Positions 28,806 to 39,762 of a DNA stretch of 58,711 nt are shown here, one piece after another (the first letter of the stretch is position 1; every line of letters begins with the position of its first letter). Made by a program: the position numbers and the translations under genes. The notes below the pieces were generated by a model, which searched no databases, had not been told where the DNA came from, and saw only the letters and a list, made by a program, of their open reading frames with translations. The DNA is from an uncultured virus (IMG/VR IMGVR_UViG_3300037067_001693) (lineage: Duplodnaviria > Heunggongvirae > Uroviricota > Caudoviricetes), in IMG/VR virus record IMGVR_UViG_3300037067_001693, one strand, 5' to 3'.

Positions 28806-30122
28806 TTACCTTTCAATAGTTTCATACTCTTTAATCCAGTCGATTATTGATTCTGAGAATCCGTCAACATGAATCCACTTGCCATACCCAACTCCATTTC
28901 TAGCAGATGCGACATTAATTATGTAAGCATTTCCAGAAGGATCAGGAACATGATCATGACTCTGCTCGTCAGTAAATACTATTAACCTATCTACATCTTT
29001 AATCTCAGAATAAACAGCATTTACTGCTTTACCAAGATAAGTAGATCCATGTGTTTGACTACCAACAATAATATCTCTTAAAGCAAATCCTCTTCTTGAA
29101 GGAACTTGCACAACAGATTGTGAGAATGTTAATATAGTAGCTCTTTCGCATAACTCTCTAAGAACCATTGCTACTCCGCAAGCAGCATCCATTCTGGTAA
29201 GATTTGACTTTGAAGATAGTTTATCCTCCATACTACCAGACACATCTACCAGAACAACAGTGTGTCCACTAAGTCTTTTTGTGTCTTTGATGCACTTAAG
29301 CATTGCAGTCTCAAGATAAGGTTCGAGGTCAAGAGCATATCGTGCGGCTGCGATAAAGCGATAAGGAAGGATTCGTTCTGTGTTAATATCTTTAATTGCC
29401 TCAATAATTAAACTTGTAGTAACACCAGCCATCTTCATATTACGAAGATTTCTAAGCAGCGCAAGTCCACCAAGTTTACCCTGCGAAAGAAGGCGTTCCC
29501 ATGTCTCTTTCTTGTCAGCACCAGAAGACAACTGAACTTCCCATGTGTCAGGAGATTCAAGAGTACCAGCAATTAATTCTTTCCAGACCGCTGCTTGTCC
29601 AATTGATTCTGGTTTTGCGTGGGAAAGAAACAATACATCTTTAAGTTTTATTTTATCGTCTCGATTATACTTAGCTAAACTATACGCAGTAAATTTGGTA
29701 AAGGCTTTTGCTAATCCTTTCTTTATCTGTGCAGACAAAGGACATCTACCATCTTTCCAATAGATAGCCAAAAACTCTGTTAATTCATCAGGTCTTTGTA
29801 TTACTCTATTAAGAACCATAGCAGTTTCTTTATATCCTTGTCTAGCCAATTCTCTGGCAAGAAGAAGAGGAACATGCCGAAGTTTGAATTTCTCTCTTGC
29901 TTCTACTGCCAGTTCAGCAACTTTGTTAGGATCGACTTCTTTAATCAAAGAAGCAATTCTTGAAGCAATGGTTTCTCCATCCTCATAAAACTCTCTTTCC
30001 CAAAGCATACAGGAACACACTGATCTTCGAAGCATTTGATAAGCATTTACGTGAAGTGATGCTTTTGCTCCTTCGTGAGTGTAAACAGGAATTGCTTTTG
30101 CTGCGGTGTTGATCTTCGCCAT
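28806..30122 (-). CDS. rsr: Ro60/Rsr TROVE-vWA RNA-binding protein
   Basis: THEGAKA, FYEDG, QRPDE, LAKY, TWEVQLS, ALLRNLRN, LPYRF (TROVE); VLVDVSGSM MIDAS, VFTDEQ, DGFSE (vWA). Confidence 0.92.
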   Translation of the reverse strand: MAKINTAAKAIPVYTHEGAKASLHVNAYQMLRRSVCSCMLWEREFYEDGETIASRIASLIKEVDPNKVAELAVEAREKFKLRHVPLLLARELARQGYKETAMVLNRVIQRPDELTEFLAIYWKDGRCPLSAQIKKGLAKAFTKFTAYSLAKYNRDDKIKLKDVLFLSHAKPESIGQAAVWKELIAGTLESPDTWEVQLSSGADKKETWERLLSQGKLGGLALLRNLRNMKMAGVTTSLIIEAIKDINTERILPYRFIAAARYALDLEPYLETAMLKCIKDTKRLSGHTVVLVDVSGSMEDKLSSKSNLTRMDAACGVAMVLRELCERATILTFSQSVVQVPSRRGFALRDIIVGSQTHGSTYLGKAVNAVYSEIKDVDRLIVFTDEQSHDHVPDPSGNAYIINVASARNGVGYGKWIHVDGFSESIIDWIKEYETIER

Positions 30123-30154
30123 GTCTAAATTTCCTTTCTAAAGTTTAAGAAGTT

Positions 30155-30231
30155 AAATGAGGGAACAATCAATTTCAGGAAGCCTTTCGGCCTTCTTAAC
30201 AGGAAGTACCTGAAATTTTCGCCACTCATTT
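30155..30231 (-). ncRNA. Y-RNA-like RNA 1
   Basis: AAAUGAG-UGGCGAA-AAUUUCAGG-UACUUC...CCUGAAAUU-GAUUGUUC-CCUCAUUU; ends pair; adjacent to the Ro60 gene. Confidence 0.75.
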
Positions 30232-30237
30232 CTTTAA

Positions 30238-30308
30238 AACGTAACTCCGGAGGTTTGCACTTTCTGCTCGGTCTGAGCGTACACAGTGCCTCTCTGCAGA
30301 GTTACGTT
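30238..30308 (-). ncRNA. structured hairpin RNA within the Y-RNA array
   Basis: Perfect 10-bp closing stem AACGUAACUC/GAGUUACGUU with nested stems; lacks the GGCGAA and UACUUC motifs. Confidence 0.5.
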
Positions 30309-30321
30309 ATTATGCTGAAGG

Positions 30322-30412
30322 GCAGGGGAACAGGCAACTAAGGAGTAGCCAAGTTTGATCTTGGCAACCATTGCTGGTCTTAACCGAAGTATCCATAGTT
30401 TACGCCACCTGC
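30322..30412 (-). ncRNA. Y-RNA-like RNA 2
   Basis: GCAGG-UGGCGUA-AACUAUGGA-UACUUC...UCCUUAGUU-GCCUGUUC-CCCUGC with two internal hairpins. Confidence 0.75.
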
Positions 30413-30428
30413 TTTAAATCTTAAATAA

Positions 30429-30493
30429 TGCTGAGGAATAAACGATTACAGTATTTTTCGCCAAAGAAGTAACTGTAATCTTCGCCATCAGCA
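30429..30493 (-). ncRNA. Y-RNA-like RNA 3 (minimal)
   Basis: UGCUGA-UGGCGAA-GAUUACAGU-UACUUC...ACUGUAAUC-GUUUAUUCC-UCAGCA; contains GGCGAAG. Confidence 0.75.
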
Positions 30494-30498
30494 AGTTT

Positions 30499-30629
30499 TG
30501 GTAGATCGGGTGGGACTCGAACCCACGGTCCAAAGTTTGTTTGAAGTATCCATAACCTTCGCTACCTTTCGGAGAATAAGCGGTTAAGGTCTTTTTGGTC
30601 TTTTGCTCTACCAACTGAGCTACCGATCT
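30499..30629 (-). ncRNA. tRNA/Y-RNA chimera A (tRNA body with CCA; anticodon arm replaced by a permuted Y module)
   Basis: Acceptor AGAUCGG/CCGAUCU-A-CCA, D arm GCUC-AGUUGGUA-GAGC, T arm GUGGG-UUCGAGU-CCCAC; insert CCUUAACC-GCUUAUUCU-CC-GAAA-GG-UAGCGAA-GGUUAUGG-AUACUUC. Confidence 0.8.
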
Positions 30630-30639
30630 AAATACTGAA

Positions 30640-30764
30640 GAAAGTGGACAGGAATCGAACCTGCGTCTCGTCATCCTAATTGAAGTAACCCTATTCTGCG
30701 CCACCTTTCGGGGAAAAGTCGAATAAGGAAATTTTCGCGTGCTAACCACTACACCACCACTTTC
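30640..30764 (-). ncRNA. tRNA/Y-RNA chimera B
   Basis: Acceptor AAAGUGG/CCACUUU, D arm GUGU-AGUGGUUA-GCAC, T arm GCAGG-UUCGAUU-CCUGU; insert CCUUAUUC-GACUUUUCC-CC-GAAA-GG-UGGCGCA-GAAUAGGG-UUACUUC; no encoded CCA. Confidence 0.78.
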
Positions 30765-30766
30765 AT

Positions 30767-31021
30767 TTATTTCAAGTTAAAATACTTCGTTTTTGACAGA
30801 CTTTCGTTATCCTTCCAATCTCCCAAGATCTTTCCAAGCACCACAATAATTGCCTGAAGAGCTTCCTTTTCGTGAGAAAGTATGGAAGCCTTATCTGCTA
30901 CCATCCTACTAAGGGAGGTCATTGCACTGATCTGACCTTTAGCAGTGTTACGTTCTCTTGCCCATCTTTGGGCTTTGGTTAAGGTAAGTTTAGCCATTAT
31001 TCTTCCTTTAAAACATCCCAA
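30767..31021 (-). CDS. hypothetical protein
   Basis: Probable start MAKLTLTK; immediately upstream of the RNA array. Confidence 0.5.
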   Translation of the reverse strand: MGCFKGRIMAKLTLTKAQRWARERNTAKGQISAMTSLSRMVADKASILSHEKEALQAIIVVLGKILGDWKDNESLSKTKYFNLK

Positions 31022-38664: not shown

Positions 38665-39762
38665 TTATATAACGTAGGCACGTTCTAGGGGTTCTGTGCT
38701 TGCGTAAACCTTATTAGCTAAAATAGCATATTTAATAGTTTTAACAAACTGAATAATATCTGTATCTATTTTAACTTTTCCTTTCTCTGTGTATGAGTAA
38801 GTACTCATCAAATCTAAGCAAGTAACAACCAAATGTCTTGAGGAAAAAGTCAAGTTTACGTCTTTGTTTATAGCATATCTTAATACATCTAAATCAAGTA
38901 ATGCTGATCTGAATTTACCTTGGTACGTGTTATCAAAGTTTTGTTCGTACGTATTTCTCTTTATTTCATGTTTAATTTCTTCATTAGTCATAGGCCCGTT
39001 ACCGTGCCTTGTTTGGTAAGCTCTGGTAACAAGAAATACTTCTGGATTGAATCCCATCTCTACTATATTTTTAAGTCCGGTATTTGCTCTTGTTACGTGA
39101 GGAAAGAATCCTATACTCTGATCTAAGAGCAAACCTTGCGAACCTTCAAATATAATATTATCATAGTAAGAAACATGTGGAAATCCTGAAGTTGGTCTTA
39201 TTGCTGCTGTGTCAACTAATTCTTTGCAAGTAGAAAGAAACTCTTCGGCGTCATCATTAGTGTATTTATAATACTGCTTAAGCATTTCTAACTTTATTTT
39301 AAGAACTGAAGGATAGTATAAATCCTCAAACAATAAGGAAAAATGATCCTCCTCACGTTGAAAAGTTTGTCCTACTCCCACTCCACAGCTTCCATGCTGA
39401 GTGTCATGATTAAGTATTTTATTCCGCATCTTCTCATATGGCGTAGTGATAGGACAGCGTAAATCTATATAAAGTGTAGGACTTATTCCCTTACTATTTA
39501 ACACACTAAGTTCATTAAGAATTCCCACTGGATCAACTGTGCAGTAGCTTGACCAATACGTATTAAACCCTTGAAGTGTACCGCTGCCAAAGTTTGAGAA
39601 TACGTGGTCAAGTCCATTTTCAAGCATTACATGATGACCTGCTTGATGACCACCACTAAACCTCACCACCAGTGGATTTGAGGACAGGGAGCATAGCCAA
39701 CTGACTACTTTACCTTTACCCTCATCCCCAAACCCACAACCTATAACAGCTTGACATTTCAT
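38665..39762 (-). CDS. adenylosuccinate synthetase-like protein (divergent PurA)
   Basis: GFGDEGKGK, RFSGGHQAGH, GSCGVGVG, FEGSQG, TRAYQTRHGNGP. Confidence 0.85.
   Translation of the reverse strand: MKCQAVIGCGFGDEGKGKVVSWLCSLSSNPLVVRFSGGHQAGHHVMLENGLDHVFSNFGSGTLQGFNTYWSSYCTVDPVGILNELSVLNSKGISPTLYIDLRCPITTPYEKMRNKILNHDTQHGSCGVGVGQTFQREEDHFSLLFEDLYYPSVLKIKLEMLKQYYKYTNDDAEEFLSTCKELVDTAAIRPTSGFPHVSYYDNIIFEGSQGLLLDQSIGFFPHVTRANTGLKNIVEMGFNPEVFLVTRAYQTRHGNGPMTNEEIKHEIKRNTYEQNFDNTYQGKFRSALLDLDVLRYAINKDVNLTFSSRHLVVTCLDLMSTYSYTEKGKVKIDTDIIQFVKTIKYAILANKVYASTEPLERAYVI

What the first reader, a model, noticed from the sequence alone, without database searches (positions are those of the whole stretch)
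30499..30764. tRNA/Y-RNA chimeras: tRNA bodies whose anticodon arm is a circularly permuted Ro-binding module
Seen: two adjacent minus-strand RNAs (30499-30629, 30640-30764) have canonical 7-bp acceptor stems, U8, D arms and GGUUCGA T arms; the first ends in ACCA. Neither has an anticodon loop. In its place each carries the module found in the three neighbouring stand-alone RNAs, but permuted: the pyrimidine strand (UUAUUC/UUUUC) comes first, then CC-GAAA-GG, then the URGCG(A/C)A strand, an 8-bp stem and UACUUC. Known: bacterial YrlA Y RNAs form the Ro-binding stem from their 5'/3' ends and carry a tRNA-like domain whose acceptor-like stem is closed by a loop. Inference: these RNAs have the inverse topology, with free tRNA ends and a capped Ro site. 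They could be matured by RNase P and CCA-adding enzymes and perhaps aminoacylated, tethering phage Ro60 to tRNA-binding machinery or acting as decoys for tRNA-targeting defence toxins. I do not know of this architecture being described.
Basis: partly seen in the sequence, partly recalled or inferred. Interest (0 to 1): 0.93.

Follow-up and report, generated by a model that had tools for sequence, protein, structure and literature searches.

The report
Phage Y RNAs built in tRNA order
Next to a phage Ro60 gene lie two small RNAs that are the known tRNA-like "YrlA" Y RNA turned inside out, with free tRNA ends and a capped Ro60-binding hairpin where the anticodon loop should be, and the same design recurs in other phages including the gut phage crAss001.

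Summary
Window 30499-30629 and 30640-30764 (minus strand) each have a paired acceptor stem, U8, a D arm and a T arm, but no anticodon loop. In its place sits a tetraloop-capped hairpin carrying the Ro60-binding motifs of the three neighbouring Y RNAs, in permuted order.

It is not chance. I found 18 such RNAs in 15 loci. They sit beside Ro60/TROVE genes in 10 of 98 IMG/VR loci, 2 of 80 genome loci, and crAss-like phages including crAss001. In 96.7% of cells the proposed pairs form, against 39-48% for slid controls. All 8 acceptor pairs covary.

Most related loci carry canonical YrlA instead, with the T arm before the D arm, a closed acceptor hairpin and the Ro stem made by the RNA ends. The window RNAs are therefore a clean circular permutation of YrlA back to tRNA order.

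CCA is encoded in 10 of 18, and position -1 pairs with 73 in 15 of 18. This argues for tRNA-like end maturation.

YrlA, its tRNA mimicry, and RNase P cleavage plus CCA addition of M. smegmatis YrlA are already published. I found no description of a one-piece tRNA-order form. Verdict: a real, new variant of a known kind. Its function is inferred.

The parts
30499..30629 (-). tRNA-order Y RNA 1 ('win1'): acceptor 30629-30623/30509-30503, D arm 30620-30605, 4-bp anticodon-stem top (AAAG/CUUU), T arm 30526-30510, A73 + encoded CCA 30502-30499; U at -1 (30630) can pair with A73
   Evidence: Sequence. Rfam tRNA 51.6 bits. Model R1 118.7 bits. Covariation.
30550..30589 (-). Ro60-binding module of RNA 1, capped: stem S strands 30589-30582 and 30557-30550 (7 of 8 pairs), pyrimidine strand, CC-GAAA-GG cap and UAGCGAA at 30581-30558
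   Evidence: Sequence. Stem S and the cap helix covary across 18 RNAs. The motif resembles the GNCGAAN0-1G Ro motif of Chen et al. 2014.
30640..30764 (-). tRNA-order Y RNA 2 ('win2'): G-1 (30764):C73 (30640), acceptor 30763-30757/30647-30641, D arm 30754-30739, T arm 30664-30648; no encoded CCA
   Evidence: Sequence. R1 118.9 bits. Covariation. Rfam tRNA gives only a 20.7-bit partial match.
30689..30728 (-). Ro60-binding module of RNA 2, capped: stem S 30728-30721 with 30696-30689 (8 pairs), GACUUUUCC, CC-GAAA-GG, UGGCGCA at 30720-30697
   Evidence: Sequence. Covariation.
30543..30548 (-). UACUUC motif of RNA 1 (RNA 2: 30682-30687). It directly follows stem S, is nearly invariant in all Y RNAs of these loci, and overlaps the conserved YUAY that Chen et al. 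place at the start of the V region
   Evidence: Invariant columns. Motif scan. Chen 2014 figure legend.
30424..30496 (-). Stand-alone Y RNA (YrlB-like hairpin): terminal stem, UGGCGAA, 8-bp stem, UUACUUC loop, UUUAUUCC
   Evidence: Fold z -4.27. The same motifs recur upstream of Ro60 in related loci.
30322..30412 (-). Stand-alone Y RNA 2 (UGGCGUA ... UACUUC ... UGUUCCCC)
30154..30232 (-). Stand-alone Y RNA 3 (UGGCGAA ... UACUUC ... UUGUUCCC)
   Evidence: Fold z -3.10..
28806..30122 (-). Ro60 / TROVE + vWA protein gene, 438 aa, directly downstream of the RNA array on the same strand
   Evidence: Pfam TROVE 2.2e-18 and vWA_Ro60 2.6e-8. PHROG 850 'RNA-binding protein' 2.3e-49.
30767..31021 (-). 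Upstream 84-aa ORF. Its stop codon ends 2 nt before G-1 of RNA 2, so the RNAs are probably cut out of a longer transcript
   Evidence: ORF list. Sequence. No promoter-like site was found between the ORF and RNA 2.

Best explanation
The two RNAs are Y RNAs of the YrlA class, the Ro60-associated tRNA mimics, built in native tRNA order.

Topology:
- Canonical YrlA reads: Ro 5' strand, stem, V region, T arm, acceptor hairpin, D arm, stem, Ro 3' strand.
- Here the chain starts at the acceptor 5' strand and ends at the acceptor 3' strand, so the acceptor end is free.
- The Ro60-binding helix is closed by a tetraloop. It hangs from a short 2-5 bp anticodon stem where the anticodon loop would be.

Proposed working (inferred):
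- The RNAs are transcribed with the upstream ORF and the downstream Y RNA array.
- RNase P cuts the 5' side, probably leaving nucleotide -1 because it pairs with 73, as in tRNA-His.
- The 3' end is trimmed to, or completed with, CCA.
- The D and T loops form the tRNA elbow.
- Phage Ro60 binds the capped GNCGAA-type helix, so one RNA chain joins Ro60 to whatever host or phage factor recognises a tRNA body with a free CCA end.

Shown here: the architecture, its conservation and covariation, and its linkage to Ro60 genes. Inferred: processing, Ro60 binding and the tether role.
For: Architecture in the window.

Homology to canonical YrlA:
- The same motifs occur in the opposite order in most related Ro60 loci: URGYGNAG, an 8-bp stem, UUACUUC, CGAAAAUUU and YUKUUCC.
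- R1 matches across junctions of tandem canonical units at 50-73 bits, against 94-133 bits for true tRNA-order members.
- The Rfam YrlA model partially matches from the T arm of RNA 2 to the D arm of RNA 1, at 25.1 bits.

Conservation:
- 13 RNAs in 10 of 98 IMG/VR Ro60 loci and 2 in 2 of 80 genome loci.
- Also 4 crAss-like phage loci, of which 3 were added to the alignment.
- blastn finds the crAss form in 24 phage records, none annotated.

Covariation:
- 18 RNAs: 96.7% of 522 cells paired, against 39-48% for slid partners. 22 of 29 pairs show compensatory change. No shuffle of 500 reaches the observed values.
- All 8 acceptor pairs, including -1:73, are compensatory.
- The MAFFT alignment, not fitted to the model, gives 94.7%. 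fold_alignment returns the same 29 pairs.

tRNA body (n = 15):
- 27:43 and 28:42 both pair in 13 of 15 as printed. They pair in 15 of 15 if L015 and L068a are read with a 4-nt variable loop, which is my own reading of the sequences.
- The Levitt pair 15:48 is G:C in 11, A:U in 3 and G:U in 1.

Ends:
- CCA is encoded at 74-76 in 10 of 15, and in 0 of the 3 crAss forms.
- The window's own tRNA-Pro also encodes ACCA.
- The Rfam tRNA model reaches its gathering score on 10 of 18.

Precedent: M. smegmatis YrlA is bound by Rsr, cut by RNase P and given CCA in vivo (Chen 2014, section read).

A clade of 7 Ro60 proteins (support 99) carries only tRNA-order forms.
Against: - There is no direct evidence of expression or ends. 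The only RNA-library signal is a 249-nt contig at depth 2.4 covering 30617-30800 with 8 differences, which could be DNA carry-over.
- Single-sequence fold energies are not better than shuffles (z -1.47 and -0.48).
- The strict GNCGAA motif is met in only 3 of 15. The rest are one letter off.
- L005 has a poorly paired acceptor (5 of 7) and a weaker stem S.
- 5 of 15 lack an encoded CCA, as do all 3 crAss forms.
- A variant strain in a DNA run changes the first C of RNA 1's CCA (place 30501).
- No RNA ligase, CCA enzyme or tRNA synthetase gene was seen among the window ORFs scanned.
- The three crAss members lay outside the training set. The other 15 trained the model.
Confidence: 0.8

Rival explanations
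1. The tRNA-like bodies serve mainly as processing punctuation. RNase P and 3' tRNA-processing sites would separate the upstream mRNA, the Y RNA array and the Ro60 mRNA. The free acceptor end would then have no function of its own.
For: - RNA 2 begins 2 nt after the stop codon of the upstream ORF, and no promoter-like site lies between them.
- In L005, L006 and L085 the tRNA-order RNA is the first element of the array.
Against: - Punctuation does not need a Ro-binding helix inside the tRNA body, yet that helix and its cap covary.
- It does not explain an encoded CCA in 10 of 15.
- It does not explain retention of the Levitt pair and the D/T elbow residues.
- In L068 and the crAss phages the RNAs lie downstream of Ro60, not between an mRNA and the array.
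Confidence: 0.1
2. They are ordinary tRNA genes interrupted in the anticodon loop by an intron or by an inserted Y RNA gene. Splicing would restore a decoding tRNA.
For: - The Rfam tRNA model aligns RNA 1 end to end, with the extra 64 nt at the anticodon.
- Environmental contigs carry true tRNA-Lys(UUU) genes that share 19-21-nt stretches with the D and T sides of RNA 1 (table 5c).
Against: - No anticodon loop can be restored. Only 2-5 bp of anticodon stem exist, and the flanking letters give no 7-nt loop with U33.
- No intron family matches even at E up to 10. From general knowledge, 64-80 nt is far below the size of the group I introns known in bacterial tRNA genes.
- The module is in permuted order relative to a Y RNA gene, so a simple insertion does not produce it.
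- The insert itself is conserved and covaries in 18 RNAs.
Confidence: 0.03
3. The finding is a mis-parse of two tandem canonical YrlAs. The real RNA would run from the Ro strand of RNA 2 through its T arm to the D arm and Ro strand of RNA 1.
For: - The Rfam YrlA partial match spans exactly that interval, 30605-30667, at 25.1 bits.
- R1 also matches across tandem canonical units elsewhere.
Against: - The acceptor 3' strand of RNA 2 (CCACUUU) and the 5' strand of RNA 1 (AGAUCGG) are not complementary. Each pairs perfectly with its partner in cis.
- Stem S also pairs in cis (8 of 8 and 7 of 8) and not in trans.
- Single-copy loci (L006, L020, L026, L028, L067, L104, L106) cannot be parsed as tandem units.
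- The match is far below the YrlA gathering score of 69.
Confidence: 0.02

Closest known systems
YrlA Y RNAs (Rfam RF02553; Chen et al. 2014, PMC4201824; Wang et al. 2018, bioRxiv 10.1101/312249)
   Same: - Encoded beside Ro60/TROVE on the same strand.
- GNCGAA-type Ro motif with a pyrimidine partner strand.
- Near-invariant D and T arms, the Levitt pair and a V region starting with YUAY.
- Accompanied by hairpin-type (YrlB-like) Y RNAs.
   Different: - Chain order is inverted. YrlA has the T arm before the D arm, an acceptor closed by a loop, and a Ro helix made by the 5' and 3' ends.
- Here the acceptor is open, often with an encoded CCA, and the Ro helix is capped by a tetraloop.
- The Rfam model does not reach its gathering score: 25.1 against 69, and no hit at gathering score in the 11 loci.
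[quoted passage not shown] 2014, section read)
   Same: - The end product has a free, 7-bp tRNA-like acceptor stem with CCA and is bound by Rsr.
- A similar class exists here: 11 of 95 canonical-order YrlAs carry NCCA directly after the acceptor 3' strand. One example is CcrColossus unit 2.
   Different: That product is two RNA pieces held together by base pairing. The window RNAs reach the same geometry as a single chain, because the Ro helix is capped.
Circularly permuted tRNA genes of red algae and an archaeon, and two-piece tmRNA from permuted ssrA genes (the former cited in Wang 2018; the latter recalled, no call)
   Same: They are precedents that tRNA-shaped RNAs tolerate circular permutation of their genes.
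   Different: Those cases end in a normal tRNA or tmRNA function. Here permutation toggles between a closed and an open acceptor end of a Ro60 cofactor.
b7a-tRNA, the Band-7-associated tRNA-like RNA of Burroughs and Aravind 2016 (known to me only through Wang 2018; the paper itself could not be read)
   Same: - It is a tRNA-order tRNA-like RNA in RNA-repair-type neighbourhoods, said to lie occasionally next to Rsr.
- In crAss001 a Band-7 gene (Gp91) lies about 1.9 kb downstream of the tRNA-order Y RNA in the same block.
   Different: - It is unknown whether b7a-tRNA carries a Ro-binding module. It is described as resembling an authentic tRNA.
- No Band-7 gene was found among the window ORFs scanned.
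- Identity with b7a-tRNA cannot be excluded or shown here.

Membership tests
YrlA (RF02553) | Encoded within a few kb of a Ro60/TROVE gene on the same strand | tested here: met
   The RNAs lie 377-642 nt upstream of the Ro60 start, on the same strand. The same holds for all 18 members.
YrlA (RF02553) | GNCGAAN0-1G motif for Ro60 recognition | tested here: inconclusive
   RNA 1 has AGCGAAG and RNA 2 has GGCGCAG, each one letter off. The exact motif occurs in 3 of 15 (L005, L028, L106). The family consensus is URGYGNAG, the same relaxed motif as in the neighbouring canonical and stand-alone Y RNAs.
YrlA (RF02553) | tRNA-like domain with conserved D and T arms and tRNA tertiary pairs | tested here: met
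   U8, A14, G18-G19 and the GGUUC T loop are invariant or nearly so. The Levitt pair 15:48 covaries G:C to A:U.
YrlA (RF02553) | Topology: T arm 5' of D arm, acceptor-like stem closed by a loop, Ro helix formed by the RNA's 5' and 3' ends | tested here: not met
   The order is acceptor 5', D arm, Ro module (capped), T arm, acceptor 3'.
YrlA (RF02553) | Rfam gathering score (69 bits) | tested here: not met
   The best match is 25.1 bits and partial. There was no hit at gathering score in the window or in the 31 other loci scanned.
YrlA (RF02553) | Binding by Ro60/Rsr | not testable with these tools
   Needs EMSA or co-immunoprecipitation.
tRNA (RF00005) | Cloverleaf body: 7-bp acceptor, D arm, T arm | tested here: met
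   RNA 1 scores 51.6 bits against a gathering score of 29. 10 of 18 family members reach the gathering score. RNA 2 gives only a 20.7-bit partial match.
tRNA (RF00005) | 5-bp anticodon stem with a 7-nt anticodon loop | tested here: not met
   Only 2-5 bp of stem top are present, followed by a 64-80 nt module. ARAGORN calls neither RNA.
tRNA (RF00005) | 3' CCA end, aminoacylation | tested here: inconclusive
   CCA is encoded in RNA 1 and in 10 of 18 members overall. Charging is not testable here.
tRNA gene with intron | An insert that matches an intron family and whose removal restores an anticodon loop | tested here: not met
   No intron family matches at E up to 10. No loop can be restored from the flanks.

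The most novel reading that the evidence does not exclude
The tRNA-order Y RNAs are chargeable. A main subgroup carries G-1 paired with C73. In one search this is 9 of 15 RNAs, and 6 of those also have an encoded CCA. From textbook knowledge, not tested here, this is the hallmark acceptor identity of bacterial tRNA-His.

If RNase P leaves G-1, as it does for tRNA-His, histidyl-tRNA synthetase could aminoacylate a Ro60-bound RNA. That would let the phage couple Ro60 to a synthetase, EF-Tu or the ribosome. Alternatively it could present a decoy acceptor end to host defences that attack or sense tRNA 3' ends.

More broadly, closed, RNase-P-opened and tRNA-order YrlAs would be three states of one switch, namely whether the Y RNA exposes a CCA end.
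Probability: 0.12. Interest if true: 0.9.

Novelty: new variant of a known kind. Interest (0 to 1): 0.68.

Why it matters
- The function of the tRNA-like half of bacterial Y RNAs is still unknown. The published view is that most YrlAs lack a free CCA end.
- Here is a natural, single-chain version with an open acceptor end. It is fixed in a whole clade of phage Ro60 loci and is present, unannotated, in crAss001, a cultured model gut phage whose TROVE gene is an early gene.
- This makes several questions directly testable: does a Y RNA need, expose or use a CCA end, and which tRNA-binding factor does Ro60 get tethered to?
- Both chain orders occur side by side, sometimes in one phage, along with an intermediate class with NCCA in the acceptor loop. 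This bears on how YrlA arose from tRNA, for example by permutation through tandem arrays rather than only from dimeric tRNA transcripts.
- Practically, these genes are missed by ARAGORN. The Rfam tRNA model reaches its gathering score on only some of them (10 of 18), and the Rfam YrlA model on none. A dedicated model would improve phage annotation.

Tried and rejected
- **Own genome:** The genome search 'own' is not held.
- **Papers not held:** Burroughs and Aravind 2016, the Sim et al. 2020 review and Sim and Wolin 2018. What they say about b7a-tRNA or permuted forms is therefore unknown to me.
- **DNA similarity:** blastn of the whole RNA array against isolate phages gave only a tRNA-Asn match in an Erwinia phage.
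- **Reads:**
  - Most small-share runs turned out to be other organisms' tRNA-Lys genes sharing the body of RNA 1.
  - One RNA-library contig covers RNA 2, but contigs cannot show ends or prove transcription.
  - There is no cover of 30544-30589 in the RNA runs, which says nothing.
- **Second-tier R1 matches** (L092, L004, L101, L002, L051, L032, L083) were inspected and rejected as tandem canonical YrlAs.
- **L015 4476-4583** was rejected as a member. It is a tRNA-like RNA with a long extra arm and no Ro motif.
- **Anticodon-like hairpin** (CUUCA, 7 nt, UGACG): considered and rejected. Position 42 covaries with 28 on the D-arm side, not with the CUUC strand (and inspection). This element corresponds to the V region of Chen et al.
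- **Gene context:** scans found no RNA ligase, Band-7, CCA-adding enzyme or synthetase among the window ORFs scanned.
- **Permuted input to the Rfam YrlA model:** not run, because it would need a joined sequence.

Full report
**1. Observation**

On the minus strand, directly upstream of a 438-aa gene with TROVE and Ro60-vWA domains (28806-30122), lie five small RNAs. The two farthest from the gene are the finding.

RNA 1 (30499-30629):
- A perfect 7-bp acceptor stem, U8, a GCUC/GAGC D arm, a GUGGG/CCCAC T arm with loop UUCGAGU, A73 and an encoded CCA.
- The Rfam tRNA model scores it 51.6 bits (gathering score 29), with 64 nt where the anticodon loop should be.

RNA 2 (30640-30764):
- The same body, with a G at -1 paired to C73 and no encoded CCA.
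- Rfam sees it only partially (20.7 bits).
- ARAGORN calls neither RNA.

Between the top of the anticodon stem and the variable loop, each RNA carries this series: one strand of an 8-bp stem, a pyrimidine strand, a CC-GAAA-GG cap, a URGCGNA strand, the other stem strand, and UACUUC. The three RNAs downstream (30424-30496, 30322-30412, 30154-30232) have the same motifs in the usual Y-RNA order, with a terminal stem made by their ends.

Folding energies of the single sequences are not exceptional (z -1.47 and -0.48).

**2. What the relatives show**

The window is a phage contig. It matches an IMG/VR UViG at 100%, and it encodes terminase, portal, DNA polymerase and primase.

I fetched Ro60 relatives from three sources:
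- 98 distinct IMG/VR loci. Some are near-duplicates from different samples, and 481 relatives exist of which only the best 80 of the second scan were kept.
- 80 genome loci.
- 9 representative isolate or uncultured phage records.

Reading the upstream regions showed that most loci hold canonical YrlA. The order is terminal stem, UGGCG(A/U/C)A, 8-bp stem, UUACUUC, V region, T arm, acceptor hairpin closed by a loop (often GAAA, GCAA or UUCG), D arm, CGAAAAUUU, stem and YUKUUCC. A rule-based scan found 95 such units in 85 of the 183 loci then held, with five duplicate loci not removed.

A minority have the window's order instead. Rules and a covariance model R1 built from 15 of them agree on the set:
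- 13 RNAs in 10 of 98 IMG/VR loci: L001 x2, L005, L006, L015, L020, L026, L028, L067, L068 x2 and L085 x2.
- 2 RNAs in 2 of 80 genome loci: L104 on a Clostridia MAG contig, and L106 on a 2.5-kb contig binned as an archaeon.

These score 94-133 bits. The next matches score at most 73 bits. Those I inspected (L092, L101, L083, L051 and L032; L004 and L002) run from the D arm of one canonical YrlA to the T arm of the next. This shows that the two halves are homologous between the two orders, and that only the joins differ.

**3. Members outside the training set**

R1 found the same design at 74-85 bits in crAss-like phages:
- cr106_1, PhiCrAssBcn17, crAss001 (MH675552.1 96450-96597, minus strand) and cr112_1.
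- blastn finds it in 24 phage records (20 Bacteroides phage records and 4 records of uncultured phages). None has an annotated feature there.
- In crAss001 it lies downstream of the TROVE gene Gp96, in a block that ends with a Band-7 protein, Gp91.
- A paper on crAss001 transcription lists the TROVE protein among the early genes and does not mention tRNA (0 occurrences of 'tRNA' in the main text).

**4. Structure support**

On the model-guided alignment of 18 RNAs:
- 96.7% of 522 cells form standard pairs, against 39-48% when partners are slid by 1-3 columns.
- 22 of 29 pairs show changes on both sides, and no shuffle of 500 reaches the observed values.
- All 8 acceptor pairs, including -1:73, are compensatory. 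So are 6 of 8 pairs of the module stem, 3 of 4 of the Ro/cap helix and 3 of 5 of the T stem.

Because such an alignment leans towards the model, I repeated the count on the plain MAFFT alignment of 15. It gave 94.7% against 41-48%, and fold_alignment returned the same 29 pairs.

Further tRNA features (n = 15):
- 27:43 and 28:42 both pair in 13 of 15 as printed, with five different pair combinations. They pair in 15 of 15 if L015 and L068a are read with a 4-nt variable loop, which is my own reading of the sequences.
- The Levitt pair is G15:C48 in 11, A15:U48 in 3 and G:U in 1.
- The cap varies in sequence and length (CC-GAAA-GG, CGC-UUCG-GCG, a 6-bp stem with GCGA, UC-GGAA-GA). That is what a mere closing hairpin should do.

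**5. Ends**

- CCA is encoded at 74-76 in 10 of 15 and in none of the 3 crAss forms. Chance would give about 1 in 64 per RNA.
- The window's genuine tRNA-Pro also encodes ACCA.
- Position -1 pairs with 73 in 15 of 18: G:C in 9, U:A in 5 and A:U in 1. The precursor therefore offers an 8-bp stem.
- From textbook knowledge, such a pair shifts RNase P cleavage by one position in tRNA-His. I did not test this.
- RNA 2 starts 2 nt after the stop codon of the upstream ORF, and no promoter-like site lies between them. This fits excision from a longer transcript.

**6. A third class links the two orders**

- In 11 of 95 canonical-order units the "loop" of the acceptor hairpin begins with NCCA.
- Examples are L031 (C-CCA followed by the same AU-rich leader and G that precede tRNA-order RNAs), L055, several alphaproteobacterial loci (UCCAU), and CcrColossus unit 2 (ACCA plus a 30-nt spacer).
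- These look like the M. smegmatis case, in which YrlA is bound by Rsr, cut by RNase P and completed with CCA, giving two pieces (Chen et al. 2014, section 8 read).
- The tRNA-order form reaches the same geometry in one piece.

**7. Evolution**

On a FastTree tree of 176 Ro60 proteins:
- Seven tRNA-order loci form one clade with support 99: L001, L005, L026, L006, L028, L085 and L104. Every member of that clade has the tRNA order.
- The other five are scattered.
- The fewest changes of state are 5, of which well-supported branches force at least 3.
- "Not tRNA-order" in that tree means only that none was found in the flank held.

L015 carries both orders side by side. The simplest route between the orders is through tandem arrays, the classic way to permute a gene. 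This is inference.

**8. Literature**

- Chen et al. 2014: I read the abstract, passages, sections 8 and 18, and Table S2. They define YrlA and the GNCGAAN0-1G motif and list 22 phages, all with the canonical model. They discarded hits overlapping annotated tandem tRNAs. The word stem 'permut' does not occur.
- Wang et al. 2018 preprint: I read passages and the Discussion. [quoted passage not shown] They favour an origin from dimeric tRNA transcripts and speculate that some YrlAs might be processed towards canonical tRNA shape.
- A 2025 paper on a Thermus phage Ro60 describes only hairpin-type Y-like RNAs (passages).
- A 2026 preprint on tRNA mimics mentions YrlA once.
- Full-text searches for YrlA; Y RNA + Ro60 + phage + tRNA-like; b7a-tRNA; Y RNA + circularly permuted + tRNA + Rsr; crAss001 + TROVE; and crAss / Y RNA / Ro60 gave no description of a tRNA-order Y RNA.
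- I could not read Burroughs and Aravind 2016, Sim and Wolin 2018 or Sim et al. 2020. Their b7a-tRNA, a tRNA-like RNA next to Band-7 proteins and sometimes next to Rsr, remains the main possible overlap.

**9. Verdict**

- It works like a YrlA Y RNA, but it fails the family's defining topology and the Rfam threshold. I therefore file it as a new variant of a known kind.
- Ro60 binding, RNase P and CCA maturation, and any charging are inferred.
- The boldest reading still open is that the G-1:C73-CCA members are histidine-acceptor mimics.

Noticed in passing
window 30234-30320 (both strands): An imperfect hairpin of about 85 nt lies between stand-alone Y RNAs 2 and 3. It gave spurious mir-515 matches on both strands (19 bits against a gathering score of 68) and has no Ro motif. 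It could be a processing element, a terminator or a further small RNA.
   Followed up: no
window 38665-39762 (-): An adenylosuccinate-synthetase-family gene (Pfam 9.5e-47), placed by PHROGs in the family of the PurZ-type enzyme. This hints that the phage may replace adenine by 2-aminoadenine in its DNA. No DatZ or MazZ partner was looked for.
   Followed up: no
L192 3428-3570 (PhiCrAssBcn17; same region in crAss001): A second tRNA-order-like RNA. It has a 7-bp acceptor (GGGGAUG/CAUCCCC), a T arm and a capped Ro module (CC-CGAA-GG), but no recognisable D arm. R1 scores it 36.5 bits.
   Followed up: partly
L187 622-800 (Caulobacter phage CcrColossus JX100810.1): The GenBank feature 'tRNA-Gln' (109217-109284) overlaps the 5' half of a canonical-order YrlA that Chen et al. 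list (109117-109288). That unit has ACCA plus a 30-nt spacer in its acceptor 'loop', so it is probably cut into two pieces.
   Followed up: partly
L031, L055, L004, L117, L126, L129, L136, L159, L163, L168, L171: 11 of 95 canonical-order YrlAs have NCCA directly after the acceptor 3' strand. This suggests that the RNase P and CCA route known from M. smegmatis is used in several lineages.
   Followed up: partly
L015 4476-4583: A tRNA-like RNA downstream of Ro60 with acceptor, T arm and a long extra arm but an odd anticodon region. The Rfam tRNA model scores it 38.7 bits. ARAGORN does not call it, and it has no Ro motif.
   Followed up: no
L085 1374-1480: A canonical-order Y RNA that carries a T arm but no D arm or acceptor, like the M. 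smegmatis YrlB described by Chen et al.
   Followed up: no
window 30507-30527 and 30608-30626: The D-side and T-side stretches of RNA 1 are identical over 19-21 nt to true tRNA-Lys(UUU) genes of other organisms in environmental runs. The 'type B' members (RNA 1, L026, L028, L085b) may therefore have taken their body from a tRNA gene.
   Followed up: partly
L193 4000-4148 (crAss001 Gp91): A Band-7/SPFH protein gene lies in the same block as the TROVE gene and the Y RNAs. This recalls the Band-7-associated tRNA-like RNA of Burroughs and Aravind.
   Followed up: no
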